Source: Acidimicrobiales bacterium (lineage in GTDB: Bacteria > Actinomycetota > Acidimicrobiia > Acidimicrobiales > VFJN01). From it: a stretch of DNA of 64,000 bases. The first letter of the stretch is position 1. The number at the start of each line of letters is the position of its first letter. Positions 46,704 to 59,662 of the stretch are shown piece by piece. The notes under the pieces were generated by a model. It searched no databases and had not been told where the DNA came from. It saw only the letters and a program-made list of their open reading frames with translations. The DNA is taken from positions 17,152 through 81,151 of the forward strand of contig DATFRN010000450.1 of NCBI GenBank assembly GCA_035263165.1, in the 5' to 3' direction. A program made the position numbers and the translations under genes.

Positions 46704-47426
46704 GTGAGCCGTGCAGACCTCGACGAGCAGATCGCCGGCGTCGCCTCCCTGGCCGAGCCGCAGCGGCGCAACCTCTACCGCTACGTGGTGGCCCAGGACC
46801 GCCCCGTCGGCAAGGACGAGGCCGCCACCGCGCTGGGCCTGGCGCGCTCGGTCGCCACCTTCCACCTCGACCGGCTGGTGGCCGACGGCCTGCTGGCCAC
46901 CGAGTACCGCCGGCTCACCGGCCGCACCGGCCCGGGCGCCGGGCGGCCGGCCAAGCTCTACCGGCGGGCCGACCGCGAGATCGCGGTGAACCTCCCCGCC
47001 CGCGACTACGGCCTGGCCGCCGACGTGCTGGCCACCGCCGTCTCCGCCGCCGAGGAGGCGGGCACGCCAGTGGCCGACGCGCTGGCCGGCGCCGCCGCCG
47101 ACCGGGGCCGGCGGCTCGGGGCCGAGGTGGCCCGGCGCCTGCCCCGCACGGCGGACCGGGGCGACGTGGTCGACGCCGCCCTGGAGGTGCTCGACGAGCA
47201 GGGCTACGAGCCCCGCCGCCAGGGCGACGAGGTCGTGATGGCCAACTGCCCGTTCCACGCCCTGGTCGAGGACCACCGCAGCCTGGTGTGCGGCATGAAC
47301 CTCGACCTGCTGGACGGCATGACGTCGGCGCTGCCGCCGGGCATCCTGGCCGCCCGCCTGGACCCGTCCGACGACGCCTGCTGCGTGCGCATCAGCGTGC
47401 GGGAGGCGCCGGCAGCGCCCGACTGA
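46704..47426 (+). CDS. Winged-helix (ArsR-like) transcriptional regulator with a Cys-containing C-terminal domain
   Basis: GTG start. LAEPQRRNLYRYVVAQDRPVGKDEAATALGLARSVATFHLDRLVADGLL, then C-terminal NCPFH...VCGMN...DDACCV. Confidence 0.8.
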   Translation: MSRADLDEQIAGVASLAEPQRRNLYRYVVAQDRPVGKDEAATALGLARSVATFHLDRLVADGLLATEYRRLTGRTGPGAGRPAKLYRRADREIAVNLPARDYGLAADVLATAVSAAEEAGTPVADALAGAAADRGRRLGAEVARRLPRTADRGDVVDAALEVLDEQGYEPRRQGDEVVMANCPFHALVEDHRSLVCGMNLDLLDGMTSALPPGILAARLDPSDDACCVRISVREAPAAPD

Positions 47427-49221
47427 GGTCGGTGGCGAGCGTGCTCTCCACCCGGCGGGCCCAGTTGTGGATCTGGCGGCGCAGCTTGTCGGCGTCCACG
47501 CCCGCCGGCGGGTTGTCGTAGTAGTCGACGAGCCGGGCCACCGTCGCCCGGCGCAGGTCGGCCCCCGCCTTCTGGTAATAGGTGGCCAGCGGGGTCCAGG
47601 TCGGCCGCTGGGGCAGCGGCAGCAGCATGTACTGGTGGAAGTAGCCGCGGAAGTCCTCGGTCCACTGGCGGAGCTCCTGGTCGTCGTTGCTGCCGCCCTC
47701 CCGCGCCACCAGCTGGAGCTCGTGCTGGGCGTACTGGCGGGTCGTGAGCCAGGTGTTCGGGTTCAGTGAGTTCGGGCCGATGATGGCGAAGCGGCGGTCG
47801 CCGGCCCGGAAGTTGTAGCCGACGTTGTCGCCGACCGGGCGGGGCACCTCGTCCCGCGTGCGCGGCCACCGCTTCTTGCCGTTGAGCGCGGCGTCGAAGT
47901 TGATCACCGGGATCTGGGCGTAGTCGTCCGGGTGGACGGCGTCGCCGTGCGAGGTGCCGGCCGCCTGCACGGTGATGCCCAGCTCGCACAGGGCCTGTTG
48001 GGCCAGCGCGGCCATGGCCGCCTGGCCGTGCTGCTGGGCCGCCTCCACCCCGGCCTTCCACTGGTCGGGGGTGAGGGCCTGGCACGACTGGCCGCCAGTG
48101 GCCGGACCGGCGGGTCCGGCGGGCCGGACCTGGGTGGCGCCGCCGCCGACGCAGCGCTGGAGGCGGAGGCCGGCGCGGAGGCGGGGCATGACGCCCTCGA
48201 TCCGGTCGGGGGCGGCGCCCGTCCACCGGGACACGACCGCGCCGACGGCCGCCCGGTCGGCGTCCTCCTCCAGCGCGGCGACCGAGCCTCCCCCGCCGCC
48301 GCCCGCCTCCTGCTGGCCGACGTGGGCCAGCTCGTGGGCGATGAGGGCGTCACCGACGAGGCTGCCCGGGTCGTACTCGCCGGGCAAGAAGGCGATGTCG
48401 GGGCCGACCGTGAAGGCCCGCGCCCCCATCCGGCCGGCCAGCTCGCCGGCCCCGGCGCCGGTGTGGACCCGCACGGCGGAGAAGTCCCGGCCGTAGGCCG
48501 CCTCCATCGGCGCCCGCACCGCGGCGTCGAGCGGGCGGCCGTCGCCGAGGCCCCGCCGCACCACGCGGGCGTCGCCCGGGGTGGCGCCGCCGTCGCGCAG
48601 CTTGAACAGGGCGCTGACCAGGCCGCCCACCGCCGACAGGACACGCCCGACCACGCCGGCGGCCGGCGCCGGGGCCTCCCCCGCCGCCCGGGCCCGGGCG
48701 GCGACGCCGGCGGCGGCGATCCAGCGCCGGGCGTCGGGGCCGTCGACGCCGGGCAGGTTCTCCCGCAGCGACCGCAGCAGGCCGGCCGTGTCCTGGGCCT
48801 CGAGGTCGGCGAACGCGGCGGGCAGGTTGACCGCGGCGTCGGCGCGGGCCAGCGGGCCGGCCCCGGCCAGGGCGCCCTCCACCTCGGCGCGCAGGGCGGC
48901 CAGGAACGGCGTGCGCCGCATCTGGCCCGGGGCGGGCTCGGCGCCGTCGTCGACCACGGGGTCGACCGCCCCGGCGGTGGCGTCCGCCTGGCGGCCGGCA
49001 TCCACCCCGGCCAGCAGCCGCTGGACCCCGTGGTTGCCGGCCGCCCGCTGGAGTTGGCCGACCAGGGTGGCCCGGGTCCCGCCGCCCCCGGGACCGGCCA
49101 GGCGGCGGTCGCCCAGCAGCTCGGGCGGCAGCCGGTCGGGCCCGGCGGGCGCCGGTGGGGGACGCACCGGCGCGGGCGCGTCCCGGTCGTCGCGCCGGCG
49201 GCCGTCCCTGCGCCCGGTCAC
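47392..49221 (-). CDS. DUF4157 (eCIS-core, HExxH) domain protein with an unknown ~300-aa C-terminal domain (polymorphic-toxin-like)
   Basis: 609 aa from GTG 49221 (GTGA overlap with the upstream stop). The N-terminal motif is [18 protein letters not shown]. The DUF4157 core is [77 protein letters not shown] (nt 48310-48546). The rest of track ORF 47392..51531 is antisense junk. Confidence 0.85.
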
Positions 49222-50372
49222 GCCCCGCCGCCCCCCGGGCCGGCGGCCACGTGGTAGACGCCGCCGGCCGACAGGTGGGCGTCCCGGGGCCGGCCACCGG
49301 GGCCGACGGCGGCGGCCATCCGGCCCAGCGCCGCGGCCTCGGCGCGCCGCAGCGGCGGGCCCGGCGCCGGCCGGGAGAAGGCGTAGTGGCAGCGCACGCC
49401 GCCCCGCCCGTCGTCGCGGTGGGAGGCCGACACCCGCACGCCGAGCGGGGTGGTGGCGGCCACGAGCCCGCCCCGGGCCGCCTCGGCCCCCCGGACGAGC
49501 CGGGCCACCGCCAGGGCGTGCGCGGGATGGCGCACGCGGCCCGCGCCCGCCCGGGCGGCGACGAGGGCGACGCCGGCGGCCACCGCCACGCCCGCCGCCA
49601 GCGCCACGCCGGCGGGCACCGCCCGCCAGCCGGCCGCCGCGGCCAGCCCACCGGCCGCGACCACCGCGACCGCCGTCCACTGGGCCTCGGACAGCCCGGC
49701 GGCGTAGGGGCGGCCCGGGTCGCCCCGCAGCGGCTCCAGCCAGAAGCGCACGGCCATGTGGGCCAGGAGGTAGACGGCCAGCGCGGTCCCGGGCGGCGCC
49801 CCGCCCAGCACGACCGCCACAGCCGCCAGGGCCATCGCGAGGAGGGCACCCGCCTCCAGGGCGGGCACGGGCAGCAGGGTCACGCCGGCGTACTCGACCG
49901 GCAGGCCCTCGCCCACGTGGCGGGCGCCGTAGCGCACGCCCCGGGCGGCGGGGCGCCCGTGGCAGCACCCGGCGACCAGGCAGCCGACCCGCCCGCAGGC
50001 CAGGAAGACGGCCAGCCCGGGCGCGGCCACGTCGAGCGAGGCGAGCACCGGCTGGCGGGCCAGCGCCAGCATCCCGGCGGCTGCCGCCAGCGCCGCCACC
50101 TCGGCGTGGAAGCACACCAGCCGGGCGTGCCCGGCCACCGCCGCCTCCGCCGCGGCCACGGCCAGCAGCGCGCCGACCATGGCCCCCGCCAGCGCCAGGA
50201 CCAGCCACCCGGGGCGGCCGGCCGCCCGGGCCAGGGCCAGCGTCCAGCCGGCGGCCAGGACCAGCCCGGCGGCCCCGCACACGGTGAACCCGGACCAGCG
50301 CCCGCCCGGCCCCACCCGCACCCAGCGCTCCGGGAGCCGGCTGGCCGGCCCGTGTGCGTGACGAGCGTCCAC
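49218..50372 (-). CDS. Prolipoprotein diacylglyceryl transferase (Lgt) family membrane protein with a ~130-aa C-terminal extension
   Basis: [63 protein letters not shown] resemble Lgt motifs. The start is uncertain; GTG 50372 is proposed. GC is extremely high. Confidence 0.6.
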
Positions 50373-50547
50373 AACCGCCTCCGCTGCCGCTCCACCACCG
50401 ACCGTCGCCGATCCGGCCCACCCCGGGCAGTGCCGCCGGTGAGGCCGGAGGGGCAGATCCGCGTGCCCGATCGGGCAGCCCGGCAGGCGGGATGCCGCGG
50501 AGGGTGGGCCGGTTGCGCGAGCGTGGAGGCAGGACGCAGCGAGCGAG

Positions 50548-51597
50548 GTGCGCGTGAGCCAACTGGCGACCATCGACCGGCGGGCGGCGACCTGGGGTGT
50601 CATCGCCGTGCTCGTGGCGCTGGCGATCGCCGTGCTCGGCAGCGGCAATCTGCGCTGGTTCGACGCGGCCCTGGTCGGCTACCTGTTCGGCACCCTCTTC
50701 GCCATCTTCGCCGTGGTCTACCGCTACCTCATCTGGCTGCGGCGGCCGCCCACGGCCCGGCTCAACCGCCGGGGCTGGGAGGCGTTCCGCCGGCCCGGCC
50801 GCCGGGGCCGCAACGCCGCGGCCCTGCCCGGCCTGGTGGTGACCAACCTGGCGCTCCAGTCGTTCATCCGGGGCCGCTCCAAGCTGCGGTGGCTGGCCCA
50901 CCAGCTGATCTTCTGGGGCTGCGTGCTCGCCGGCCTGGTGACGTTCCCGCTGGTCTTCGGCCTGCTCCACTTCCAGTCGGTGGGCCAGAACGCCCGGGAG
51001 TACCAGGCGTTCGGCGGCAGCCTCGGCACGTTCACCTTCGACAGCCGCAGCGTGTTCGGCTGGATCGTCTTCCACCTGCTCGACATCGCCGCCGTCCTCG
51101 TGCTGGCCGGCGTGTTCGTCTTCCTCGGCCGCCGCCTGCGCGACCCGGGGGCGCTGGCCACCGAGCGGTCGAACGACTTCCTCGCCCTGGCCGGCCTGTT
51201 CGCGGTGTCGGTGACGGGCCTGGCGTTGACCGCCTCCAACCTGTGGATGGACGGCCGCTTCTACGTCTTCCTCACCACCATCCACGCCATCACGGTGATC
51301 CTCGGGCTGATGTACATCCCGTTCGGCAAGCTGTTCCACATCTTCCAGCGGCCGGCCAACCTCGGCGTCGCCTACTACAAGCGCGAGGGCGTGGCCGGCC
51401 CCCAGCAGGCCTGCGCCCGCTGCGGGGACGAGTTCGCCTCGCAGCTCCAGATGACCGACCTCAAGGAGGTGCTCCCCCAGGTGGGCTTCGACTACTCGGT
51501 TCCCCACGGCGGCGGCAACTACCAGGACCACTGCCCGCGGTGCCGGCGGGCGCTCGTGGCCCTGGCCCAGTCGCGGGCGGTCGGAGGCTTCGGCTGA
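50548..51597 (+). CDS. NarI/DsrM-like di-heme cytochrome b membrane subunit with a C-terminal 2x CxxC tail
   Basis: 5-6 TM helices. [41 protein letters not shown], and the C-terminal CARCGDEF...HCPRCRRAL. Confidence 0.75.
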
Positions 51598-53834
51598 TGG
51601 CCCGTCCCCCGGTCAGCGAGGAGGAGCTGGTCGCCCGGTACGGCCCCCACCTCAACCAGGCGCCGCCCGGCGGGTGGAACGCCGGCATCGAGGCCGACCG
51701 CGAGGTCCACACCCACTGCTGCTTCTGCGGCCAGCAGTGCGGGATCGTCCTGAAGGTCCGCGACGACGAGGTCGTCGGGTTCGAGCCGTGGTACGAGTTC
51801 CCGTTCAACGAGGGCAAGCTCTGCCCGAAGGGCGTCAAGCGCTACCTCCAGAACGCCCACCCCGACCGGCTGCTCGACCCGCTGGAGCGCGACCCGTCGG
51901 CGCCGGGCGGCTTCCGGACCGTGACGTGGGACCACGCCCTCGACCGCACGGTGGCCGAGATCCGCCGCATCCAGGCCGAGCACGGCAACGACGCCTTCGC
52001 CATGCTGTCGGGTGTCTCGCTCGACAACGAGAAGTCGTACCTGATCGGCAAGTTCGCCCGGCTGGCCCTCGGCACCGCCAACCTCGACTACAACGGCCGG
52101 CTCTGCATGGTCTCGGCCGGCGTCGCCAACAAGCGGGCGCTCGGCATCGACCGCGCGTCGAACCCGTGGAGCGACATCCCCCTGGCCGACGTCGTGTTCG
52201 TCATCGGGGCCAACATCGCCGAGTGCGCCCCCATCACCACCAGCTGGATCTGGCGGGCCCGGGACAACGGCGCCAAGCTCATCGTCGCCGACCCCCGGGT
52301 GACGCCGACCGCCCGCACCGCCGACCTGTTCCTCGGCCTGCGGCCGGGCACCGACTCGGCCCTGCTGGGCGCCATGCTCCACGTGCTGATCGAGCGGGAC
52401 TGGCTCGACCACGACTTCATCCGCGACCACACCGCCGGGTTCGAGGAGGCGGCCGAGGCCGTCCGGGACCACACGCCGCAGTGGGCCGAGGGGATCACGG
52501 GCGTCCCCGCGGCCCGCATCGAGCAGGCGGCCGAGTGGTGGGGCACGTCCCGGACCGGGATGCTGATGCACGCCCGGGGCCTCGAGCACCACAGCAAGGG
52601 CGTCGAGAACGTGTGGGCCTGCATCAACCTCGGCCTGGCCACCGGCAAGTACGGCAAGCCGGGCTGCGGCGTCACCACCATCACCGGGCAGGGCAACGGC
52701 CAGGGCGGCCGCGAGCACGGCCACAAGTGCGACCAGCTGCCGGGCAACCGCGACATCACCAACCCCGAGCACCGGGCCTACGTGGCCTCGGTGTGGGGGT
52801 GCGAGGTGGACGACATCCCCGGCAAGGGCCTGACCGCCCAGGAGATCGTCGAGGCCATCCACCGGGGCGAGATCAAGGGTCTGCTGTCGATCTGCTTCAA
52901 CCCGGTCGTCTCGCTGCCCGACACGACGTTCACCAAGGAGGCGCTCGACAAGCTGGAGTTCTACGCGGTCATCGACTTCTTCCTGCCCGAGACCGGCTTC
53001 CACGCCGACGTCGTGCTGCCCGGGTCGCTCCACGAGGAGGACGAGGGCACCTCCACCACCGTCGAGGGCCGGGTGGTGAAGCTCAACCCGTCCAAGACCC
53101 CGCCCGGACGGGCCCGGCTCGACTGGGAGATCATCTGCGACCTCGCCGGCCGGCTGGGCAAGGGCCACTACTTCCCCTACGACAACCCCCAGGAGATCTT
53201 CGACGAGCTGCGGGTGGCGTCCAAGGGCGGGGCCGCCGACTATGCCGGCATCACCTGGGAGCGCATCGAGGACGAGCTGGGCGTGTTCTGGCCCTGCCCC
53301 GAGGAGGGCCACCCGGGCACGCCCCGGCTCTACGAGGGCGGCCGCTTCCCCACCCCGGACGGCCGGGGCCGGTTCAACCCCGTCCGCTACCGCCCGCCGG
53401 CGGAGGTGGTCGACGACGAGTACCCCGTGTGGCTCACGACCGGGCGGGTGGTGAGCCAGTACCTGTCGGGGACCCAGACCCGGCGCATCGGGCCGCTGGT
53501 CGCCCAGTACCCCGAGCCGCTGTGCGAGATCCATCCCCGGCTGGCCGAGGAGCTGGGCGTCGCCACCGGCGACGTCGTGCGGGTCACCTCCCGGCGGGCC
53601 TCGATGACCCTGCCGGCCAAGGTGGTCGCCACCATCCGGCCCGACACCGTGTTCATCCCCTACCACTGGGCCGGCGACCGGGCGGCCAACCAGCTCACCA
53701 ACCGGGCGCTCGACCCGCTGTCGAAGATCCCCGAGTACAAGGTGTCGGCGGTGCGGGTCGAGCGGGTCGGCCCGCCCGGCACGGCGGTGGTCGACGAGCG
53801 GGACATGGACCTCGTGGAACGGGAGGACGGCTGA
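51597..53834 (+). CDS. Molybdopterin (bis-MGD) oxidoreductase catalytic subunit, Nas/Nap-type, with no Tat signal of its own
   Basis: The ATG overlaps the upstream TGA (TGATG). The N-terminal 4Fe-4S motif is [11 protein letters not shown]...GKLCPKG. The Cys-ligand region is [15 protein letters not shown]. The N-terminus [12 protein letters not shown] has no RR motif. Confidence 0.9.
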
Positions 53835-54508
53835 TGGTCAGCGTGCCGGTGTCGATCGGCGTCAAGCGCAGTCCCGCCACCCGCCCGGTGGCCGGGGCGT
53901 TCGGCGACAGCATCTTCGTCATCGACCAGAGCCGCTGCATCGGCTGCAAGGCCTGCGTCCAGGCCTGCGAGGAGTGCGGCACGCACCGGGGCACCACGAT
54001 GATCCACCTGGAGGAGATCGACCGGGCGGCCACCACCCAGACGGCCCCGATGGTGTGCATGCACTGCGAGGACCCGACCTGCGCCGAGGTGTGCCCGGCC
54101 GACGCCATCAAGCAGAACGAGGACGGCATCGTGCAGTCGTCGCTCAAGCCCCGCTGCATCGGCTGCTCGAACTGCGTGCTGGCCTGCCCCTTCGGCGTGC
54201 CCAAGTACGTGTCGGCCTACGACCAGATGATGAAGTGCGACATGTGCTACGACCGCACCTCGGTCGGGCAGAAGCCGATGTGCGCGTCGGTGTGCCCGAG
54301 CGAGGCGCTGTGGTTCGGCACGCCCGAGGAGTTCGCCGCCGGCCGCACCGGGACGCTGGTCAACGAGTGGTGGTTCGGGAGCCAGTACGTCGCCACCAAG
54401 GTGCGGGCGGTGGCCCACGAGCCCGGCGCCATCGACGTGCTGGCCGCCGAGGGCGCCCGGCCCTGGCAGGACGACCCGTTCGGCCTCGACGAGATCGGGG
54501 CAGCGTGA
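53834..54508 (+). CDS. 4Fe-4S dicluster (DmsB/HybA-like) electron-transfer subunit
   Basis: [44 protein letters not shown]...CASVCP. The ATG overlaps the upstream TGA. Confidence 0.9.
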
Positions 54509-55023
54509 CCCGGGTCCCGCTGCCCGATCCGGTGTGGCGGCAGGACTTCCCGCTCACCTCGGCGGGCGAGGACGAGGTGACCCGGCGCGAGTTCGTCCGC
54601 TACCTGGTGCTGGCCTCCGGCGGGTTCGCGGCCGGCAACGTGGGGATCGCCCTGTGGTCGTCGCTGCGGTCGATCAACGAGGGCGAGCCCCGGCCGATCG
54701 TCGCCCTCGCCGACGTGCCCGAGGGCACGGCCCACCTGTTCGACTACCCGTCACAGGCCGACCCGGCCATCCTGGTCCACCTGCCGGGCGGCGAGCTGCG
54801 GGCCTTCTCCCAGAAGTGCACGCACCTCGGCTGCGTCGTCTACTACCAGGCGGGCAAGGGGGAGATGGTGTGCCCGTGCCACGAGGGCCACTTCTCCGCC
54901 ACCACCGGCGACGTGCTGGCCGGGCCGCCCCAGCGGCCGCTCGGGCGCATCGACGTCGAGGTGCGGGACGGCACCGTGTGGGCGCTGGCCGCCGAGGGCG
55001 AGGGCGAGGAGGCGCACCGATGA
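54505..55023 (+). CDS. Rieske [2Fe-2S] protein with a Tat-like signal/anchor
   Basis: GTGA overlap at the start. [26 protein letters not shown] is a twin-Arg motif followed by a hydrophobic helix. Cluster boxes are CTHLGC and CPCHEG. Confidence 0.85.
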
Positions 55024-55274
55024 CCGGCACGCCCACGATCCCGCCCCGGGACCTGCCCCCCCACCGCGGCGGTCCCCGCCGGGCCCGGGCCCGCCGCGAG
55101 GTGCCCGCCGCGCTCGGCGTGTTCGTGGTCGTGCTGCTGTCGCTCCAGGTGTTCCTGCTGACGGTCGGGCTGGACGCCCTGCTGGCCGACGACGACGGCC
55201 TGGCCTGGGTCACGGCCGGGCTGTCCCTGCTGCTGGCCGCCGGCTCCGCCGCCTTCTACCGGTTCCTGAAGTGA
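55020..55274 (+). CDS. Small two-TM membrane protein (84 aa)
   Basis: ATGA overlap upstream and GTGA overlap downstream. VPAALGVFVVVLLSLQVFLLTVGL and WVTAGLSLLLAAGSAAFY. Confidence 0.55.
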   Translation: MTGTPTIPPRDLPPHRGGPRRARARREVPAALGVFVVVLLSLQVFLLTVGLDALLADDDGLAWVTAGLSLLLAAGSAAFYRFLK

Positions 55275-55900
55275 CGGTCGACGAGGAGCCCCGGCGGCCG
55301 GGGCCGATCGGCGGCGACATGGCCGCCATCGTGTTCGGCCTGGCCCGCCGGGCGCGCCTCACCTCCCTGGTCGAGCGGTACGACTCCACGCTGATCCTCG
55401 GGCTGTTCGCCTTCGTCAACGGGCTGATCGCCATCGGGATCATGGCCTTCGTCGCCTTCGTGACCGGCCAGCCGTTCGTGTTCCCGTCGCTGGGGCCGAC
55501 CGCCTTCCTGCTCTTCTACACGCCGCTGCTGGCGGCGGCCTGCCCCCGCAACACGGTGTGCGGGCACGCCATCGGCGCCGCCGCCGGCTACCTGGCGTTG
55601 GTGCTCTTCGGGCTGACCGACGCGGCGCCGGCGCTGGCCACCAGCGTGACCGGGGCCCGCGTCGGCGCGGCCGCCCTGTCGCTCGGGCTCACCAGCGGCG
55701 CCATGGTGTGGGCCCGGGTGCCCCACCCGCCGGCCGGGGCGACGACGCTGATCGTGTCGCTCGGCATCTTCCACGAGCCGAAGCAGCTGGCCGTGCTCAT
55801 GCTGGCGGTCGTGCTGCTGGTGGTGCAGGGGTTCGTCATCAACCGGCTGGCCGGGATCCCTTACCCGGTCTGGTCGCCGCGCCCGGCCGACGGGCCATGA
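55271..55900 (+). CDS. HPP family membrane protein
   Basis: 209 aa. ...ARVPHPPAGATTLIV... (HPP motif) with 4-5 TM helices. Confidence 0.8.
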   Translation: MTVDEEPRRPGPIGGDMAAIVFGLARRARLTSLVERYDSTLILGLFAFVNGLIAIGIMAFVAFVTGQPFVFPSLGPTAFLLFYTPLLAAACPRNTVCGHAIGAAAGYLALVLFGLTDAAPALATSVTGARVGAAALSLGLTSGAMVWARVPHPPAGATTLIVSLGIFHEPKQLAVLMLAVVLLVVQGFVINRLAGIPYPVWSPRPADGP

Positions 55901-55927
55901 GCGCGGCCAGCAGGGCGAGGGCGGCCT

Positions 55928-58900
55928 TCACCACGACCCCGGGATCTCGACGACCTCGCGGTAGGCCACGACCGTCGAGGACGCCGCCGTGCCGTGGTCG
56001 TCGACCGTGACCGGCTCGGCGTCCTCGATCACCACCCGGCGGTCGGCGCCGCTGGTGGGCAGGTCGACCACGCCCGTGTAGACCGCGGCGCCCGTGGCGG
56101 ACGCCGGGGAGAGGACCACGGTCGCCACGTCGTGCCAGCGGAGGTCGGGGTCGCTGACCCCGGTGTCCGCCTCCTGGGTGATCACCCGGACCTGGTTACC
56201 GGCGGCCAGGCCGGACAGCCGCACCGACGCCCGGCCGGCGCCGGGCGCCACCTGCGCCACCGTCACCTCCCGGAGCGCCCCCAGGCGCACCGGGGCGACC
56301 TCGACGGTGGGCGACAGGTTCAGGCCGGGGACGGCGTTGGGCTGGTAGCGGCACACCGCCAGCTGGACGAACGGCCGGTAGCCCACGTCGTCGCCGGCGT
56401 CGACCAGCACGTCGGCCATCCACAGCTTGCGCTCGGGGTCGAACGTCACCTCGTAGCCGGCCACGTCGAGGTCCCCGTCGAGCACCCCGTCGGGGAACGC
56501 GGCCAGCGTCGGGTCGCCGGACGGCCCCGGCCCGTCGACGATCGGGTCGCGACCCCAACGGGTCAGGCCGTCGCCGACCGCCACGCCGAGCAGCTCGCCG
56601 GTGCCGCTGTCGAACCAGGGCCGGTCGAGGAGCAGGCGCACGACCCGGCCGTCGTGGCTGACGGTGATGGCGGTCTCCGTCGGCGTGACCGTCCGCTGGA
56701 CCGCCGGGACGGCCGCGACCACGACGGGCGGGGCGGGGGCGGCCGACGCCGGGACGTCCACCGAGAACCGCTGTCCGTTCCTCGCCTCCAGCGACAGCCG
56801 GCTGACCGGGCGGGGGATGAACTCGACCCGGCACGGGGTGCCCGGAGGCAGCGCGGCGTCGTCGAGGATGGTGAGCGTGCCGTCGCGGGAGACGCGGAAC
56901 TGCGTGCCCCGTGCCATCGTGGCGCCGTCCTCCCGGCGGGTGAGCACCACCGAGGCGGGCACCACGCCCTCGGCGTGCAGCGCCAGCGGGGCGGCCGGGT
57001 CGGCGGCGAAGTCGATCCGCTCGGTGAAGTAGCGGCTGAACCGGCAGAAGCCCTCGGCCACCACGTCGACCACCCGCCGCCGGGTGTCGCCCAGCTCCAG
57101 CGACGTGGCGTCCAGGCTCGGGGGGTCGTCGCCGTCGACCGGGATCTGCACGTCGGCCACGATCCGCTTGGTGACCTGGTCGACGGGCCCGTCCGTCGCC
57201 GGGTCGTCGACGGTGTCGACCCAACTGCTGCGCAGCACGGCGTGCTCGGTGGTGGGCCGGTGCACGGCCAGCGTGCCGCCGAGCACCACGTCGGTCTGCC
57301 CGGCCTCGGTCCGGTCGCCGGTCATCGAGCGGAGCCGCGGCGGGTCGATCGGCAGCCGCACGGCGTGCACGAGGCTGATCGGCCGCCGGGGCGAGATCGC
57401 CTGGTTGAGGCCGCGGCGGGCGGCGGCCCGCGCCGCGGGGTCGAGGTCCTGGGCCAGCGCCATGTGATCGATCAGGTCGGGCGCCGGCGCCGAGGCCAGC
57501 TCGGCGGTCGCCACCGTGCCCGGGGGCAGCTCCACGGTCACCCGGCGGTCGGCGGCCGAGGTCGTCGGGGCGCCGGTGCCGGCCCGCAGCTCGAGCTGGG
57601 CCGCCTCGACGTCGGGCCAGGTCCCGTAGGACACCAGCTCGGGGTCGGCGGGCACGCCGCCCGGCAACCCGATGAGCGCGGCCCGCCGGGCCACGGGGTC
57701 GGCCAGGTAATCGACGGGTGGCTTGAGCGGGCCCTCGGTCACCTCGTCGCCGACCAGCGCCCCGCCGGCCACCAGCTCGCCGGTCTCGGGGTCGACGAGG
57801 GTCTGGTCGGACAGCGACACGGCGTCGCGGGCGACCAGCAGCTGGTAGGACTCGGGCGTCTTGTCGTTGCCGCCGCCCGGCAGGTCGTGGCGCTCCAGCC
57901 GGCTCTGACTGATGCGGGGCGGGAACAGCAGGCGGTCGGTGGGCGCGATGTCCGAGGTGGGCTGGTCCAGCTCGCTGCGGATGACCAGCACGTCGGGGAG
58001 GTCGCCCACGCCGGGGTCGGGCCGGGACGCCCGCCGCACCGGCAGCGGCGGCACCAGCGGCGCCAGCCGGCCGAACTGGGTGGGCGGCGCCTCGCCCCCG
58101 GGCGGCGGCACGTCGGCCAGCGCCGGGCCGTTGCCGGCCAGGTCGACGCAGCGGGCGCGCAGCTTGTAGGTCCGCCCGTAGCGCAGCTTGGGCAGCGTGC
58201 CCGGCACGTGGGCGTACTCGACGCCCACGCGGGCGGGGCCGTCGCCCGGCCCGTTCGGGGTCCGCGCCACGACCTCGCCGGCGCCGGTCGAGCTGGCGCC
58301 GACGCGGGGGGTGGAGAGGCTCCACCCTCCCCAGGTCACGACCTGGTCGTCGACCCGCCAGGCCGTCGTGTCCCGGGCCTCGACCTTGGGCGCCGGCTTG
58401 CTGCCCTCCTGGTGGTAGACCACCCCGCTGCCCCCGGTCACGTGCTGCTCGGTGCCGTCGGTGCTCAGCGCGATCGACCCCCAGCCCTCGTCGGGTGGCG
58501 GCAGCACCGTGAGCTTGGTGTTGCGGGGGAACACATAGCCGTCGGGTACCTGGCGGTCGTGCAGCGACAGCCGGTCTGGCGCCACGTCGTCGGCCACGTC
58601 GCAGCGGTAGCCGGCGGTGACGTCCTCGGCGAACAGCTGCGGCGGCACGGCGTTGGGCGTGCTGGTCAGCCAGGCGTCGATGCCGTCCTCGATCTGGCGC
58701 TGGCGGGCCAGCCGGCGCCGCAGGACGTCGTCCAGGTCGCCGCACACGAGCGAGAGGCCCCCCTCCAGCAGCGCCGGGACCTCGATGCCGGCGTCGGGGT
58801 CGGAGGCCGCCGCCACCGCGTCGGCCATCTGGCCGACCTGGGTGATGGCGTTGAGCCGGTCGAGCTGGGCGACCGCGTACTTGGCGCCGCCGAGCGCCAG

Positions 58901-59662
58901 CCAGTCGGTGACCCGGAACTCGGGCTGGTCGACCCTGGCCTTGAACGCGCCGTCGACGGCCACCCGCATCGGCACCTCGTCGTGCGGCGTGAGCCCGACC
59001 TTGGCCGGCCAGGTGGTGCGCACGGCGATCGTGGTGACGGGGGCCCCGCCGGGCGGCAGGGTGATCTCCAGGTCGAACACGAGCCCCAGCCCCCGCATCA
59101 GGAACGGGTGGGCGCCGAGCGCGCCCAGCTGGTCGTGGAACTCCTTGGACGGTGCCCCCGGGGTCTCGCCGTCGCCGACCTGGCCCATCCAGTCCTGCGC
59201 CGCCGGCAGCACCGTGTCGAGCAGCGGGCCCGCCGCCGCCCGCACCTCGGCCCGGGTGGCGCGGCCGCCGCCGACGGCGGCCCGGTCCCGCGCCAGGGCC
59301 ATCACCTGCTCGGACAACTCGGCCGAGTCGATGGCCGTGAGGTCGAGGCGCGACCGGTCCCGGAACGTGTACGGCGCGACCGGCACGGCCCGGGGGTCGC
59401 CGAAGGTGGCCCGCCACACCCGGGGGTCGACCGGGGGCGACACCACCGTGGTGGTGGCGCCGGGCCGCACCTTGCCGTTGACGAGGGGCGTGAACGCCAG
59501 CGGCGGGCCGCCGGCCACGAACGCGCCCCAGTCGGCGACGTCGGGGTAGTCGGCGAGCGCGCCCGCCTCCCGCAGCCGGGGGGACAGGTGGACGGAGAGG
59601 AACAGGGTGGCGCCGCTGCGGCCGTTGGGCAGCGGGGTGACGACGAGGTGGTGCACAGGCAT
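55928..59662 (-). CDS. Giant hypothetical protein B (1244 aa), no recognised domain
   Basis: Clean single-frame translation: MPVHHLVVTPLPNGRSGATLFLSVHLSPRL...LRYGRTYKLRARCVDLAGNG...VAYREVVEIPGSW. AAGGGA lies 7 nt before the ATG. I saw no signal peptide, TM helix, P-loop or HExxH. Confidence 0.8.
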   Translation of the reverse strand: MPVHHLVVTPLPNGRSGATLFLSVHLSPRLREAGALADYPDVADWGAFVAGGPPLAFTPLVNGKVRPGATTTVVSPPVDPRVWRATFGDPRAVPVAPYTFRDRSRLDLTAIDSAELSEQVMALARDRAAVGGGRATRAEVRAAAGPLLDTVLPAAQDWMGQVGDGETPGAPSKEFHDQLGALGAHPFLMRGLGLVFDLEITLPPGGAPVTTIAVRTTWPAKVGLTPHDEVPMRVAVDGAFKARVDQPEFRVTDWLALGGAKYAVAQLDRLNAITQVGQMADAVAAASDPDAGIEVPALLEGGLSLVCGDLDDVLRRRLARQRQIEDGIDAWLTSTPNAVPPQLFAEDVTAGYRCDVADDVAPDRLSLHDRQVPDGYVFPRNTKLTVLPPPDEGWGSIALSTDGTEQHVTGGSGVVYHQEGSKPAPKVEARDTTAWRVDDQVVTWGGWSLSTPRVGASSTGAGEVVARTPNGPGDGPARVGVEYAHVPGTLPKLRYGRTYKLRARCVDLAGNGPALADVPPPGGEAPPTQFGRLAPLVPPLPVRRASRPDPGVGDLPDVLVIRSELDQPTSDIAPTDRLLFPPRISQSRLERHDLPGGGNDKTPESYQLLVARDAVSLSDQTLVDPETGELVAGGALVGDEVTEGPLKPPVDYLADPVARRAALIGLPGGVPADPELVSYGTWPDVEAAQLELRAGTGAPTTSAADRRVTVELPPGTVATAELASAPAPDLIDHMALAQDLDPAARAAARRGLNQAISPRRPISLVHAVRLPIDPPRLRSMTGDRTEAGQTDVVLGGTLAVHRPTTEHAVLRSSWVDTVDDPATDGPVDQVTKRIVADVQIPVDGDDPPSLDATSLELGDTRRRVVDVVAEGFCRFSRYFTERIDFAADPAAPLALHAEGVVPASVVLTRREDGATMARGTQFRVSRDGTLTILDDAALPPGTPCRVEFIPRPVSRLSLEARNGQRFSVDVPASAAPAPPVVVAAVPAVQRTVTPTETAITVSHDGRVVRLLLDRPWFDSGTGELLGVAVGDGLTRWGRDPIVDGPGPSGDPTLAAFPDGVLDGDLDVAGYEVTFDPERKLWMADVLVDAGDDVGYRPFVQLAVCRYQPNAVPGLNLSPTVEVAPVRLGALREVTVAQVAPGAGRASVRLSGLAAGNQVRVITQEADTGVSDPDLRWHDVATVVLSPASATGAAVYTGVVDLPTSGADRRVVIEDAEPVTVDDHGTAASSTVVAYREVVEIPGSW

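What the first reader, a model, noticed from the sequence alone, without database searches (positions are those of the whole stretch)
50548..55900. Six translationally coupled genes: NarI-like cytochrome b, Nas/Nap-type Mo subunit, 4Fe-4S subunit, Tat-Rieske protein, mini-TM protein and HPP protein
Seen in the sequence:
- All five junctions overlap: TGATG at 51595-51599, TGATG at 53832-53836, GTGA at 54505-54508, ATGA at 55020-55023 and GTGA at 55271-55274.
- The catalytic subunit has the CxxCxxxC…C 4Fe-4S motif and a GRLCMVSAG Cys-ligand region like Nas/Nap nitrate reductases. It has no twin-arginine signal.
- The Rieske protein does carry TRREFVRYL followed by a hydrophobic helix.
- The membrane subunit is NarI/DsrM-like with an extra 2x CxxC tail.

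Established knowledge:
- Rieske partners of MopB enzymes are known for arsenite oxidase, where the large subunit hitch-hikes on the Rieske Tat signal. That enzyme has a different cofactor and ligand pattern.
- Assimilatory Nas/NarB normally uses soluble donors.
- HPP proteins have been implicated in nitrite transport.

Inference: this may be a quinol-linked nitrate or other oxyanion reductase with a non-textbook subunit composition and ambiguous topology (cytoplasmic, or Tat-hitch-hiked to the outside). I cannot exclude that this cluster type is already described.
Basis: partly seen in the sequence, partly recalled or inferred. Interest (0 to 1): 0.6.

Follow-up and report, generated by a model that had tools for sequence, protein, structure and literature searches.

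The report
Membrane nitrate reductase with Rieske subunit
The six genes are a real, widely conserved operon for an undescribed membrane-bound molybdenum enzyme, most likely a nitrate reductase. It pairs an "assimilatory-type" catalytic subunit with a NarI-like cytochrome b, an exported Rieske protein and an interchangeable nitrate/nitrite transporter, and current pipelines mislabel it as assimilatory or hypothetical.

Summary
Six co-oriented genes with overlapping stop/start codons encode a dihaem-type cytochrome b, a Cys-ligated Nas-like Mo-bisPGD subunit, a four-cluster ferredoxin, a Tat-motif bc-type Rieske protein, a 2-TM DUF6755 protein and an HPP protein.

The first five form a fixed cassette. 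It is found in at least 490 species genomes of Actinomycetota, Binatia, Deinococcota, Acidobacteriota and Bacillota. HPP is not a core subunit.

All 54 loci with enough flank carry exactly one of three unrelated anion transporters: HPP, SLAC1/TDT or NarK. In Acidobacteriota the NarK domain is fused in frame to the cytochrome b. Recurrent neighbours are RIC/YtfE, Rrf2 and Crp/Fnr regulators.

This points to nitrate/nitrite as substrate and product, and to a cytoplasmic active site. Only the Rieske protein carries an invariant twin-arginine motif and disulfide cysteines, so it most likely sits on the outer face.

Best reading: a NarGHI-like quinol:nitrate redox loop built from a NasC-sister catalytic subunit, with an extra outer-face Rieske centre whose role is unexplained.

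PGAP and JGI give only generic or assimilatory names, and ten full-text searches found no description. I rate it a new variant of a known kind, with high interest.

The parts
50548..51597 (+). Membrane anchor. Six-TM cytochrome-b-like protein with a NarI/EtfD-like fold and a cytoplasmic Cys4 (2x CxxC) tail. The alternative start GTG 50554 gives 347 aa.
   Evidence: - Sequence matches are weak: Pfam Nitrate_red_gam 21.5 bits (below cut-off), TmcC/QmoC/HmcE partial hits.
- AF2 model: pLDDT 84.7, pTM 0.77, six TM helices.
- Foldseek best matches are EtfD 9ojn and NarI 1q16_C/1y5i_C.
- Invariant residues: H118, H246, H264, C289, C292, C329, C332. H176 is conserved in at least 90%.
- The loop 59-119 has 15 K+R against 1 D+E.
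- In Acidobacteriota it is fused C-terminally to a 12-TM NarK domain, so its N-terminus is cytoplasmic.
- The 347-aa gene call comes from a 99%-identical contig.
51597..53834 (+). Catalytic Mo-bisPGD subunit (745 aa) of the Nas/Fdh/Nap branch, with Cys-Met at the Mo-ligand position and no signal peptide.
   Evidence: - Pfam finds Molybdop_Fe4S4, Molybdopterin and Molydop_binding.
- Best NCBIfam match is NasC at 783.7 bits (cut-off 1100). Fdh-alpha scores 597 (cut-off 666), NapA 251, NarG 43.
- The same pattern holds in Binatia, Deinococcus, Acidobacteria and Brevibacillus.
- C41, C44, C48, C76, C170 and M171 are invariant.
- 0 of 70 orthologues have an RR motif.
- The closest solved structures are FDHs, which carry C/U-H at the aligned position.
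53834..54508 (+). Four-cluster ferredoxin (224 aa), the electron wire between anchor and catalytic subunit.
   Evidence: - Fer4_11 scores 76 bits. DmsB, FdhB and HybA-like NCBIfam hits are all below their cut-offs.
- There are four Cys groups. Twelve Cys of groups II-IV are invariant and group I is nearly so.
- No credible Tat motif. Only 3 of 63 show a chance RR directly abutting the first cluster.
54505..55023 (+). bc/b6f-type Rieske [2Fe-2S] protein (172 aa). It has a conserved cytoplasmic N-tail, an invariant twin-arginine motif, one moderately hydrophobic helix and a variable tether.
   Evidence: - Pfam Rieske 43 bits; UCR_Fe-S_N Tat signal weak.
- Best NCBIfam hits are PetC and QcrA. Best PDB hits are b6f/bc Rieske proteins and the Thermus Rieske.
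- R27, R28, C105, H107, C110, C123, C125, H126 and F15 are invariant in 65 orthologues.
- RR is present in 65 of 65. Median hydropathy of the following segment is 1.55.
55020..55274 (+). Small 2-TM hairpin protein (84 aa, DUF6755). It is the fifth core subunit and its role is unknown.
   Evidence: - DUF6755 scores 25.2 bits against a cut-off of 27.
- PGAP names the Deinococcus orthologue 'DUF6755 family protein'.
- It is detectable after the Rieske gene in most actinobacterial loci. It is also present in Acidobacteria (L066:11344-11601) and in Brevibacillus as a 61-aa TM ORF.
- Q43 is invariant.
55271..55900 (+). HPP-family membrane protein (209 aa), a putative nitrite/anion transporter. It is an accessory replaced in other lineages by SLAC1/TDT or NarK.
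   Evidence: - TM_HPP scores 84.8 bits.
- It is present in about 27 of the 83 distinct loci fetched by then.
- It is mutually exclusive with SLAC1/TDT (12 loci) and NarK (18 loci) among the 54 well-flanked loci.
- The HPP family was shown to transport nitrite in cyanobacteria and chloroplasts (Maeda et al. 2014, as cited in PMC7438415).

Best explanation
The operon encodes a five-subunit, membrane-bound nitrate reductase plus a dedicated anion transporter.

**Shown**
- A fixed cassette of cytochrome b, Nas-like Mo subunit, four-cluster ferredoxin, Rieske protein and 2-TM protein is conserved in order and in translational coupling across five phyla.
- The cassette is always adjacent to one nitrate/nitrite-type transporter, or fused to one.

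**Inferred**
- The Mo subunit and the ferredoxin have no export signal. They sit on the cytoplasmic face of a NarI-fold dihaem cytochrome b.
- They probably dock on its large, arginine-rich conserved loops and its Cys4 tail.
- Menaquinol is oxidised at the outer face of the cytochrome b and releases protons outside.
- Electrons cross the membrane through two b haems. The proposed ligands are H176/H246 on the outer side and H118/H264 on the inner side.
- Electrons then run through four [4Fe-4S] clusters and FS0 to the Cys-ligated Mo-bisPGD, which reduces nitrate to nitrite in the cytoplasm. This is a NarGHI-type redox loop.
- HPP here, and SLAC1/TDT or NarK elsewhere, supplies nitrate or removes nitrite.
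- The Rieske domain is exported by Tat and stays anchored by its signal helix on the outer face, next to the outer haem and quinol site.
- Its most likely role is as part of the quinol-oxidising site, as first electron acceptor in the manner of a Qo site. This step is the least supported.
- Physiologically the enzyme is dissimilatory or redox-balancing rather than assimilatory. Its neighbours are nitrosative-stress genes, not nitrite-to-ammonium genes.
For: **Conservation**
- 490 GTDB species genomes encode a relative of the cytochrome b.
- The order cytb-MopB-FeS-Rieske holds in every locus that is long enough.
- It also holds on Deinococcus megaplasmids and in Brevibacillus laterosporus.
- Flanking genes are otherwise unrelated.

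**Substrate**
- NasC is the best model for the Mo subunit in five phyla, at 784-872 bits.
- Cys170-Met171 is invariant. Formate dehydrogenases have His at that position.
- 54 of 54 well-flanked loci carry exactly one of HPP, NarK or SLAC1/TDT.
- 14 of 16 acidobacterial loci have an in-frame NarK-cytb fusion.
- At least 120 independent gene calls of 723-770 aa confirm the fusion.
- The fused MFS domain hits only NarU and NarK in the PDB. It keeps both substrate arginines and nitrate signature 1.
- Its AF2 model matches NarK best.
- The Brevibacillus MFS passes the NarK family cut-off, 322 against 312.

**Context**
- RIC/YtfE occurs in 25 loci and scores above its equivalog cut-off. Rrf2 occurs in 11 loci and Crp/Fnr in 10.
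- YwiC-like, NnrS-like and NapH-like genes also recur.
- No nitrite reductase recurred among the neighbour clusters I annotated.

**Topology**
- 0 of 70 MopB and no credible FeS orthologue has a Tat motif, while 65 of 65 Rieske orthologues do.
- The Rieske protein has both bc-type disulfide cysteines invariant.
- The cytochrome b charge distribution and the 12-TM NarK fusion both place its N-terminus, its big loop and its Cys4 tail in the cytoplasm.
- Its fold is closest to EtfD and NarI. By established knowledge, the partners of both are cytoplasmic.
Against: - There is no biochemical or genetic datum for any member.
- A NarGHI-type loop needs no Rieske centre. A high-potential [2Fe-2S] placed ahead of b haems is thermodynamically awkward, so the model leaves one invariant subunit without a necessary role.
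- The Mo subunit is below every curated cut-off, so the substrate is inferred from context and one motif.
- The functions of HPP and SLAC1/TDT in bacteria are largely untested.
- Tat hitch-hiking of MopB and FeS on the Rieske signal is not excluded by sequence alone.
- Haem ligation is inferred. H176 is replaced by Asn in Brevibacillus.
- The NarI fold match has weak E-values of 0.014-0.1.
- Most hosts are regarded as aerobes.
Confidence: 0.55

Rival explanations
1. Outward-facing enzyme. MopB and the ferredoxin bind the Rieske precursor in the cytoplasm and are exported together by Tat hitch-hiking, as AioA is on AioB. Quinol is oxidised by the cytochrome b, and electrons pass from Rieske to ferredoxin to Mo on the outer face. 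This resembles haloarchaeal pNar with NarB/NarC, or Nap.
For: - The Rieske protein is the only subunit with a Tat motif, and the motif is invariant.
- A chain of Rieske, ferredoxin and Mo on one side gives the Rieske centre a simple role.
- By established knowledge there are precedents: AioAB hitch-hiking, and haloarchaeal NarGH working with a Rieske/cytochrome b pair.
Against: - An external nitrate reductase needs no nitrate/nitrite transporter. Yet 54 of 54 loci have one, and Acidobacteriota fuse NarK to the anchor.
- The most conserved soluble-facing parts of the cytochrome b are cytoplasmic: the loop 59-119 and the Cys4 tail.
- Known NarI-fold anchors, including EtfD, dock cytoplasmic partners (plus established knowledge).
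- The Rieske segment after RR is a 20-residue helix with no AxA site, which is typical of an uncleaved anchor.
Confidence: 0.15
2. Reverse direction: a nitrite-oxidising or detoxifying complex. Cytoplasmic nitrite is oxidised to nitrate at the Mo site. Electrons leave through the ferredoxin and b haems to the outer-face Rieske centre, then to cytochrome c or an oxidase, with the membrane potential assisting. The transporter exports nitrate or imports nitrite.
For: - Rieske centres are typical of high-potential, oxidative chains such as Aio and bc complexes. In this model the Rieske centre is a natural exit point on the outer face.
- Neighbours are nitrosative-stress genes: RIC/YtfE, Rrf2, Crp/Fnr and NnrS-like.
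- Hosts are mostly aerobes.
- By established knowledge, Nitrobacter NXR also oxidises nitrite on the cytoplasmic side with help from the membrane potential.
Against: - All known nitrite oxidoreductases are Asp-ligated NarG-type enzymes. To my knowledge no Cys-ligated Nas/Nap-type enzyme is known to oxidise nitrite.
- The cassette encodes no cytochrome c or other acceptor.
- NarK-type partners are classically associated with nitrate reduction.
Confidence: 0.12
3. The same inward-facing complex, but with an assimilatory role. It would be a quinol-dependent replacement for NADH- or ferredoxin-dependent Nas, feeding nitrite to a nitrite reductase encoded elsewhere.
For: - NasC is the closest model for the catalytic subunit.
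- JGI pipelines name it 'assimilatory nitrate reductase catalytic subunit'.
- The hosts are aerobic heterotrophs.
- NasC already works with a Rieske-type partner, NasG, in Paracoccus (PMC3475470).
Against: - No nirBD, nirA, glnA or ntcA-type gene recurs beside the cassette in the loci examined.
- The recurrent neighbours are NO-stress genes and regulators.
- Channel-type partners (HPP, SLAC1/TDT) suit anion efflux down the membrane potential better than uptake (inference).
- The Rieske protein here is exported and bc-type, not NirD/NasG-type.
Confidence: 0.1
4. A reductase for another oxyanion, such as chlorate/perchlorate, selenate, tellurite or sulfite-related compounds. The transporters would move that anion.
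For: - The Mo subunit is below all curated cut-offs.
- By established knowledge the SLAC1/TDT family includes TehA (tellurite resistance) and sulfite efflux pumps.
- NapA enzymes show chlorate and perchlorate promiscuity (PMC12769810).
Against: - The NarK domains keep the nitrate-binding arginines and signature motif, and match only NarK and NarU.
- HPP is linked to nitrite.
- The neighbours are N-oxide stress genes.
- No chlorite dismutase or selenium/tellurium gene recurs nearby.
Confidence: 0.05

Closest known systems
Respiratory membrane-bound nitrate reductase NarGHI (with NarK)
   Same: - The predicted architecture is the same. A cytoplasm-facing Mo-bisPGD subunit and a four-cluster ferredoxin sit on a NarI-fold dihaem cytochrome b that oxidises quinol at the outer face.
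- Both are functionally coupled to a NarK-type nitrate/nitrite porter.
   Different: - The catalytic subunit is a 745-aa Cys-ligated NasC-sister protein, not the roughly 1,250-aa Asp-ligated NarG. The NarG model scores 43 bits against a cut-off of 1084.
- The ferredoxin is DmsB/FdhB-like. The NarH model scores 40 bits against 524.
- No NarJ is encoded.
- The anchor has six TM helices and a Cys4 tail.
- There are two extra invariant subunits: an exported Rieske protein and a 2-TM DUF6755 protein.
- In Acidobacteriota NarK is fused to the anchor.
Assimilatory nitrate reductases NasC/NasA/NarB, including the NasC-NasG(Rieske)-NasB system of Paracoccus
   Same: - NasC is the best-scoring family for the catalytic subunit, with the same FS0 motif and Cys-Met Mo-ligand region.
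- There is no signal peptide.
- A Rieske-type partner exists in the Paracoccus system (PMC3475470).
   Different: - The score is 784-872 bits, below the NasC cut-off of 1100, in all five phyla.
- The enzyme is membrane-anchored through a ferredoxin and a cytochrome b, rather than soluble with an NADH or ferredoxin donor.
- The Rieske protein is bc/b6f-type with a Tat motif and disulfide cysteines, not NirD/NasG-type.
- It is not clustered with nirBD.
Haloarchaeal pNar (NarGH with Rieske NarB and cytochrome b NarC)
   Same: A nitrate reductase is teamed with a Tat-exported Rieske protein and a cytochrome b instead of, or in addition to, a plain NarI anchor.
   Different: - pNar has a NarG-type catalytic subunit with its own Tat signal and faces outward.
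- Its cytochrome b is bc1-type. Here the cytochrome is NarI/EtfD-like, and the Mo subunit lacks any signal.
- This comparison rests on established knowledge and was not tested here.
Arsenite oxidase AioAB (and iodate reductase IdrAB)
   Same: A MopB subunit without a signal peptide is paired with a Tat-signal Rieske subunit.
   Different: - The MopB clade differs. The AioA model scores 160 bits against a cut-off of 359.
- By established knowledge Aio has a [3Fe-4S] centre and no protein ligand to Mo. Here the full four-Cys FS0 motif and the Cys ligand are present.
- Aio has no four-cluster ferredoxin, no cytochrome b and no transporter.
- Aio is periplasmic.
NarI-family transmembrane redox modules: Tmc/Hmc, QmoABC, DsrMK, HdrED, mycobacterial EtfD
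   Same: - The cytochrome b gives its best sequence hits to TmcC, QmoC and HmcE and its best fold hit to EtfD.
- By established knowledge these modules link the quinone pool, or periplasmic carriers, to cytoplasmic Fe-S proteins. Tmc and Hmc have redox partners on both faces, as is inferred here.
   Different: - All scores are far below the cut-offs (33 against 240-300 bits).
- The partners here are a Rieske protein and a molybdoenzyme, not cytochrome c3 or CCG-domain proteins.
- The Cys4 tail is specific to this family.

Membership tests
NarGHI respiratory nitrate reductase | NarG-type catalytic subunit (TIGR01580, about 1,200 aa, Asp ligand) | tested here: not met
   The NarG model scores 42.9 bits against a cut-off of 1084. 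The protein is 745 aa with a Cys-Met ligand region.
NarGHI respiratory nitrate reductase | NarH-type ferredoxin subunit (TIGR01660) | tested here: not met
   39.9 bits against a cut-off of 524. It is a 224-aa DmsB/FdhB-like four-cluster protein.
NarGHI respiratory nitrate reductase | NarI dihaem cytochrome b anchor (PF02665) | tested here: inconclusive
   Pfam scores 21.5 bits against a cut-off of 22.9, over 57 residues only. The AF2 model matches NarI chains with prob 0.97-1.0 but E 0.05-0.4 and TM 0.43-0.51. Four conserved His are placed suitably. Haem content is not testable here.
NarGHI respiratory nitrate reductase | NarJ assembly chaperone encoded with the enzyme | tested here: not met
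   No further conserved gene lies within or beside the cassette in the loci examined. This rests on clustering of flanking ORFs, not on a NarJ model.
Assimilatory nitrate reductase NasC/NasA/NarB | Catalytic subunit passes the NasC or NasA equivalog model | tested here: not met
   NasC scores 783.7 bits in the window and 785-872 bits in four other phyla, against a cut-off of 1100. Haloarchaeal NasA scores 354-405 bits against 1000.
Assimilatory nitrate reductase NasC/NasA/NarB | Soluble enzyme with an NAD(P)H, ferredoxin or flavodoxin donor, usually clustered with nirBD/nirA | tested here: not met
   The gene is always embedded between a membrane cytochrome b and a four-cluster ferredoxin. No recurrent nitrite reductase neighbour was found.
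Periplasmic nitrate reductase Nap | NapA with its own twin-arginine signal, passing the NapA model | tested here: not met
   NapA scores 242-251 bits against cut-offs of 904-930. 0 of 70 orthologues have an RR motif.
Periplasmic nitrate reductase Nap | NapB/NapC c-type cytochromes or NapGH partners | tested here: not met
   None lies in the cassette. A NapH-like gene occurs near five acidobacterial loci only.
Formate dehydrogenase (FdhF/Fdh-alpha) | (Se)Cys-His pair at the Mo/W ligand position, and passing TIGR01591 | tested here: not met
   Cys170-Met171 is invariant. The aligned FDH structures have C/U-H. TIGR01591 scores 593-661 bits against a cut-off of 666.
Arsenite oxidase AioAB | AioA-type large subunit (TIGR02693) | tested here: not met
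   160 bits against a cut-off of 359. The complete four-Cys FS0 motif and the Cys ligand are present.
Arsenite oxidase AioAB | Small Rieske subunit with a Tat signal | tested here: met
   RR is invariant and followed by a hydrophobic segment. However, the AioB model scores only 31 bits against 95.7, and the PetC and QcrA models score higher.
Rieske/cytochrome b (bc1/b6f) complexes | bc-type Rieske protein with the cluster boxes CTHLGC / CPCH and the disulfide cysteines | tested here: met
   C105, H107, C110, C123, C125 and H126 are invariant. The best PDB hits are b6f/bc Rieske proteins. Scores are still below the family cut-offs, for example PetC 48.5 against 250.
Rieske/cytochrome b (bc1/b6f) complexes | bc-type cytochrome b and a cytochrome c1/f | tested here: not met
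   No bc-type cytochrome b family was hit. The membrane subunit is NarI/EtfD-like. No c-type cytochrome gene is in the cassette.
NNP (NarK) nitrate/nitrite porters (accessory or fused partner, not in this window) | NarK family model, the two substrate arginines and the nitrate signature motif | tested here: met
   The Brevibacillus MFS scores 322 bits against a cut-off of 312. The Deinococcus and acidobacterial domains score 210-272 bits, below the cut-off. The alignment to NarU keeps both Arg residues and GLGNxG. NarK is the best Foldseek match.
HPP family (nitrite transport) | TM_HPP domain with the HPP motif | tested here: met
   PF04982 scores 84.8 bits against a cut-off of 27.2. The VPHPPAG motif is in the sequence. 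Transport activity is not testable here.

The most novel reading that the evidence does not exclude
The complex is a new kind of transmembrane redox machine. A bc-type Rieske centre with a mobile head sits on the outer face, and a Nas-type molybdoenzyme sits on the inner face. They are joined by a NarI-fold dihaem cytochrome b that is physically coupled to a nitrate/nitrite porter. The Rieske centre would not be decorative. One possibility is that it forms a Qo-like, possibly bifurcating, menaquinol site on a non-bc cytochrome. The other is that it is a second electron port connecting periplasmic high-potential carriers to cytoplasmic nitrate/nitrite chemistry. That port could work in either direction, including membrane-potential-assisted nitrite oxidation in non-nitrifiers.
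Probability: 0.3. Interest if true: 0.9.

Novelty: new variant of a known kind. Interest (0 to 1): 0.75.

Why it matters
- **A possible fourth architecture.** Prokaryotic nitrate reductases are taught as three types: Nar, Nap and Nas. This cassette would be a fourth. It has a Nas-type catalytic subunit wired into the membrane like Nar, with a Rieske protein that none of the three has.
- **Abundant hosts.** It occurs in at least 490 species genomes and thousands of metagenome proteins. The lineages include abundant soil and water groups: Acidobacteriota, Acidimicrobiia, Binatia and Deinococcus.
- **Mislabelling.** KEGG-style pipelines count its catalytic subunit as 'assimilatory nitrate reductase'. 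PGAP calls its anchor 'hypothetical protein' or, wrongly, 'MFS transporter'. Metagenomic nitrogen-cycle budgets may therefore assign a dissimilatory, nitrite-producing activity to assimilation, or miss it altogether.
- **Unusual features.** The NarK-anchor fusion would be a rare case of a substrate porter covalently joined to a respiratory reductase. A Rieske centre on a NarI-fold cytochrome bears on how quinol-oxidising sites evolved.
- **Testable.** Cultured carriers make it directly testable. These include Brevibacillus laterosporus, several Deinococcus species, Actinomarinicola tropica and Desertimonas flava.

Tried and rejected
1. **Exact look-up of the window's MopB.** It is not on record. 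The source organism is therefore known only by similarity: a 99%-identical cytochrome b on ENA contig ERZ27257142 with the same flanks, and closest named relatives in Acidimicrobiales.
2. **Formate dehydrogenase reading.** FDHs are the best PDB hits. I rejected this because the essential His after the ligand Cys is Met in all 70 orthologues, and the whole context is nitrate/nitrite.
3. **Aio-like reading.** Rejected on model scores and on the complete FS0 and Cys ligand.
4. **NasG/NirD-type Rieske.** Rejected. No NirD model was hit, and the best matches are PetC, QcrA and b6f Rieske structures.
5. **Apparent cytochrome b-MopB fusion proteins (P0381, P0379, P0461).** These would have proved a cytoplasmic MopB. 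Their sequences contain frameshifted, garbled stretches, so they are assembly artefacts and not evidence.
6. **One Rieske-mini-TM single ORF (L015).** It is a single case from a long-read MAG and was not used.
8. **Promoter and terminator scan of 50000-56300.** It found nothing above background.
9. **Literature.** Ten full-text searches found no description of this cassette. They included 'DUF6755' (0 papers) and combinations of Rieske, NasC, NarK, HPP, SLAC1, molybdopterin and the host taxa. The nearest texts are generic (PMC12769810 methods) or concern NasC-NasG (PMC3475470). Subscription-only papers were not searched.

Full report

The region lies in a window of about 72-83% G+C. It holds six co-oriented ORFs.

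HMM searches confirm the domain calls.
- The 745-aa protein has Molybdop_Fe4S4, Molybdopterin and Molydop_binding domains.
- The 224-aa protein is a Fer4_11 ferredoxin with four cysteine groups.
- The 172-aa protein is a Rieske protein at 43 bits, with a weak hit to the bc1 Rieske Tat-signal family.
- The 84-aa protein is DUF6755, at 25.2 bits against a cut-off of 27.
- The 209-aa protein is TM_HPP at 85 bits.

The 349-aa membrane protein is only weakly NarI-like by sequence. Pfam gives 21.5 bits against a cut-off of 22.9, and TmcC and QmoC match at E about 1e-7. phmmer finds nothing in the PDB. An independent gene call on a 99%-identical contig starts this gene six bases later, at GTG 50554.

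**2. Is it more than chance?**

- The catalytic subunit and the membrane protein each have more than 120 database clusters at 78-99% identity.
- A scan of one genome per species found 490 genomes that encode a relative of the membrane protein.
- In the 80 best loci, plus three reached through the Mo subunit, the order cytochrome b, Mo subunit, ferredoxin, Rieske holds wherever the contig is long enough.
- The flanks are otherwise unrelated.
- The hosts span Acidimicrobiia, Nitriliruptoria, Binatia, Deinococcus and Acidobacteriota.
- A plasmid search added Deinococcus megaplasmids and Brevibacillus laterosporus.
- The small 2-TM protein is also present in Acidobacteria and Brevibacillus, where tblastn had missed it.
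- The 1-nt and 4-nt gene overlaps are themselves conserved.

The core is therefore a five-gene cassette. HPP follows it in only about 27 of the 83 distinct loci fetched by then.

**3. What the surroundings say**

I clustered all flanking ORFs and annotated the recurrent ones.

*Transporters*
- Where HPP is absent, the gene in the same slot is a SLAC1/TDT anion channel (14 loci).
- Alternatively it is a NarK-family MFS porter. It lies downstream in Deinococcus and Nitriliruptoria and upstream in Brevibacillus, where it passes the NarK family cut-off.
- In 14 of 16 acidobacterial loci the NarK-like domain is fused in frame to the N-terminus of the cytochrome b.
- A database search with one such fusion returned at least 120 independent gene calls of 723-770 aa. 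JGI names them 'MFS transporter, NNP family, nitrate/nitrite transporter'.
- The fused MFS domain hits only NarU and NarK in the PDB. It keeps both substrate-binding arginines and the GLGNxG signature.
- Its AlphaFold model (pLDDT 83.3, pTM 0.75, twelve helices before the cytochrome domain) matches NarK structures best.
- I then counted only loci with at least 1.3 kb on both sides. All 54 of 54 carry exactly one of the three families: HPP 24, NarK 18, SLAC1/TDT 12. They never co-occur.

Three unrelated anion transporters substituting for each other is strong contextual evidence. One of them is a bona fide nitrate/nitrite porter, and another belongs to a family shown to move nitrite (Maeda et al. 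2014, cited in PMC7438415). Together they indicate that the enzyme handles nitrate or nitrite, and that its substrate or product must cross the membrane.

*Other neighbours*
- The iron-sulfur repair protein RIC/YtfE occurs in 25 loci, above its equivalog cut-off.
- Rrf2 regulators occur in 11 loci and Crp/Fnr regulators in 10.
- In Acidobacteria there are also YwiC-like, NnrS-like and NapH-like genes.
- No nitrite-to-ammonium reductase recurred among the clusters I annotated.

**4. The catalytic subunit**

- In the window and in four other phyla the best model is always NasC, at 784-872 bits. This is always below the curated cut-off of 1100.
- Fdh-alpha follows at 593-661 bits (cut-off 666). 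NapA scores about 250-336 bits and NarG 43 bits.
- The closest solved structures are formate dehydrogenases, but they have Cys/Sec-His where this family has an invariant Cys170-Met171.
- From my own knowledge, Cys-Met is the Nap/Nas pattern.

The subunit is therefore a distinct sister clade of NasC. It is not a member of any curated family.

**5. Topology**

- None of 70 Mo subunits has a twin-arginine motif. Their N-terminus is a conserved non-signal extension, MA[RK]PP..YGPHLN..PPGGW.
- The ferredoxins have no credible Tat motif either.
- All 65 Rieske proteins have RR, mostly as TRREF, followed by a moderately hydrophobic segment of about 20 residues without a cleavage motif.
- The Rieske proteins carry the two extra cysteines that form the disulfide of bc-type Rieske proteins. 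Those proteins reside on the outer face (the last point is established knowledge).
- The Rieske N-tail before RR contains a conserved PxWxxDF motif. This suggests the tail stays in the cytoplasm and contacts other subunits.
- For the cytochrome b, hydropathy and charge, the AlphaFold model and the 12-TM NarK fusion agree on six TM helices with both termini inside.
- This places the 60-residue arginine-rich loop and the invariant Cys4 tail in the cytoplasm. A small three-stranded sheet lies outside.
- The four conserved histidines sit in pairs near the two faces: H118/H264 inside and H176/H246 outside.
- Foldseek places the model nearest to mycobacterial EtfD and to NarI, with high probability but weak E-values.
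- By established knowledge, both of those pass electrons between the quinone pool and cytoplasmic Fe-S partners.

Together with the obligatory transporter, this favours a split topology. The Mo subunit and ferredoxin would be inside, and the Rieske domain outside.

**6. Mechanism**

The most economical model is a NarGHI-type redox loop.
1. Menaquinol is oxidised at the outer face.
2. Electrons cross on two b haems.
3. They run through four [4Fe-4S] clusters and FS0.
4. They reach a Cys-ligated Mo-bisPGD, which reduces nitrate in the cytoplasm.
5. The co-encoded transporter exchanges nitrate and nitrite.

Shown: the composition, its conservation, the transporter linkage, the motif pattern and the sidedness signals.

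Inferred: haem binding, quinol as donor, the docking face, the direction of catalysis and the physiological role.

The model does not need the Rieske protein, although that protein is invariant. I suggest it forms part of the outer quinol site. This is the weakest step.

I keep three rivals open.
- Tat hitch-hiking of the whole soluble module, giving an outward-facing enzyme.
- Reverse operation as a nitrite oxidiser, with the Rieske centre as the electron exit.
- The same complex serving assimilation.

**7. Comparison with what is known**

- It works most like NarGHI with NarK, but it fails the NarG and NarH membership tests.
- Its catalytic subunit looks most like NasC, but it fails the equivalog cut-off and the soluble, nirBD-linked context.
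- NasC does have a known Rieske partner, NasG (PMC3475470). That partner is a soluble NirD-type ferredoxin, unlike the exported bc-type protein here.
- It shares a Tat-Rieske partner with arsenite oxidase, and a Rieske plus cytochrome b with haloarchaeal pNar. It differs from both in the clade of the Mo subunit, the type of cytochrome and the sidedness.

RefSeq names the six Deinococcus genes as follows:
- 'MFS transporter' (this is the cytochrome b, misnamed)
- 'molybdopterin oxidoreductase family protein'
- '4Fe-4S dicluster domain-containing protein'
- 'Rieske 2Fe-2S domain-containing protein'
- 'DUF6755 family protein'
- 'nitrate/nitrite transporter'

No curated functional model exists. 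Ten full-text searches found no description. I cannot exclude one in literature that was not searchable.

**8. Verdict**

The evidence sharpens it in four ways.
- The substrate couple is very probably nitrate/nitrite.
- The active site is probably cytoplasmic.
- HPP is one of three interchangeable transporters.
- The cassette is widespread, horizontally mobile and unnamed. Its mobility shows in two ways. Copies sit on megaplasmids between IS elements. Identity between Binatia and Acidimicrobiia is about 80%.

I class it as a new variant of a known kind. It is a molybdenum nitrate reductase of the complex iron-sulfur molybdoenzyme type. It carries a real unexplained element, the outer-face Rieske centre, which could make it more than that.

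Noticed in passing
window 47392-49200 (-), ORF formally extending to 51531: This gene encodes a protein with an eCIS core domain (PF13699, 101 bits). The 1379-aa ORF is a high-GC artefact. The independent call on the near-identical contig L084 is 609 aa.
   Followed up: partly
window 55928-59662 (-) and 59676-62495 (-): Two very large ORFs (1244 and 939 aa) lie directly downstream of the operon on the other strand. Neither has any Pfam hit at E<=0.01. They may relate to the nearby eCIS-core gene, but they remain unexplained.
   Followed up: no
L085 (Deinococcus wulumuqiensis pDrdI) 8926-10038; also P0189 (Iamia sp.): RefSeq/PGAP names the cytochrome b subunit 'MFS transporter', although it has no MFS domain. 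The name was probably propagated from the acidobacterial NarK-cytochrome b fusion proteins.
   Followed up: partly
L085 3853-5617 and 1-376; L001/L002 compared with the window: The Deinococcus copies sit on megaplasmids next to IS6 and Tn3 transposases. The Mo subunit is about 80% identical between Binatia and Acidimicrobiia. The cassette appears to move horizontally between phyla.
   Followed up: partly
L024 ('Hyphomicrobium sp.' MAG) and L010 ('Burkholderiales' MAG): Contigs binned as Proteobacteria carry actinobacterial-like copies with 72-83% identity in the cytochrome b. This could be misbinning or recent transfer.
   Followed up: no
window 46704-47426 (+): An ArsR-like HTH protein (240 aa, HTH_20 at 21.8 bits) has a Cys-containing C-terminal domain. 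Distant relatives (25-31% identity; 62% in L030) lie next to the cassette in seven other loci. A related HTH family occurs in about 11-16 loci. It may be a regulator of the operon.
   Followed up: partly
L013, L019, L033 (for example L033:12855-14141, minus strand): A CLC-family channel gene (PF00654, 171 bits) lies near three HPP-type cassettes. This is a fourth anion-channel family in the neighbourhood.
   Followed up: no
L062, L064, L065 (for example L064:13478-15028): Deinococcus loci carry a GAF + Trans_reg_C + BTAD regulator directly after the narK gene.
   Followed up: no
L015 11045-11725: The Rieske protein and the mini-TM protein read as one continuous ORF in a single long-read MAG. 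This could be a real fusion or an indel error.
   Followed up: no
window 49218-50648 (-): An LGT-like ORF (prolipoprotein diacylglyceryl transferase, 59.6 bits) formally overlaps the start of the cytochrome b gene by about 100 nt. The independent call is 384 aa and ends the overlap, leaving an intergenic region of about 180 nt for the operon's promoter.
   Followed up: partly
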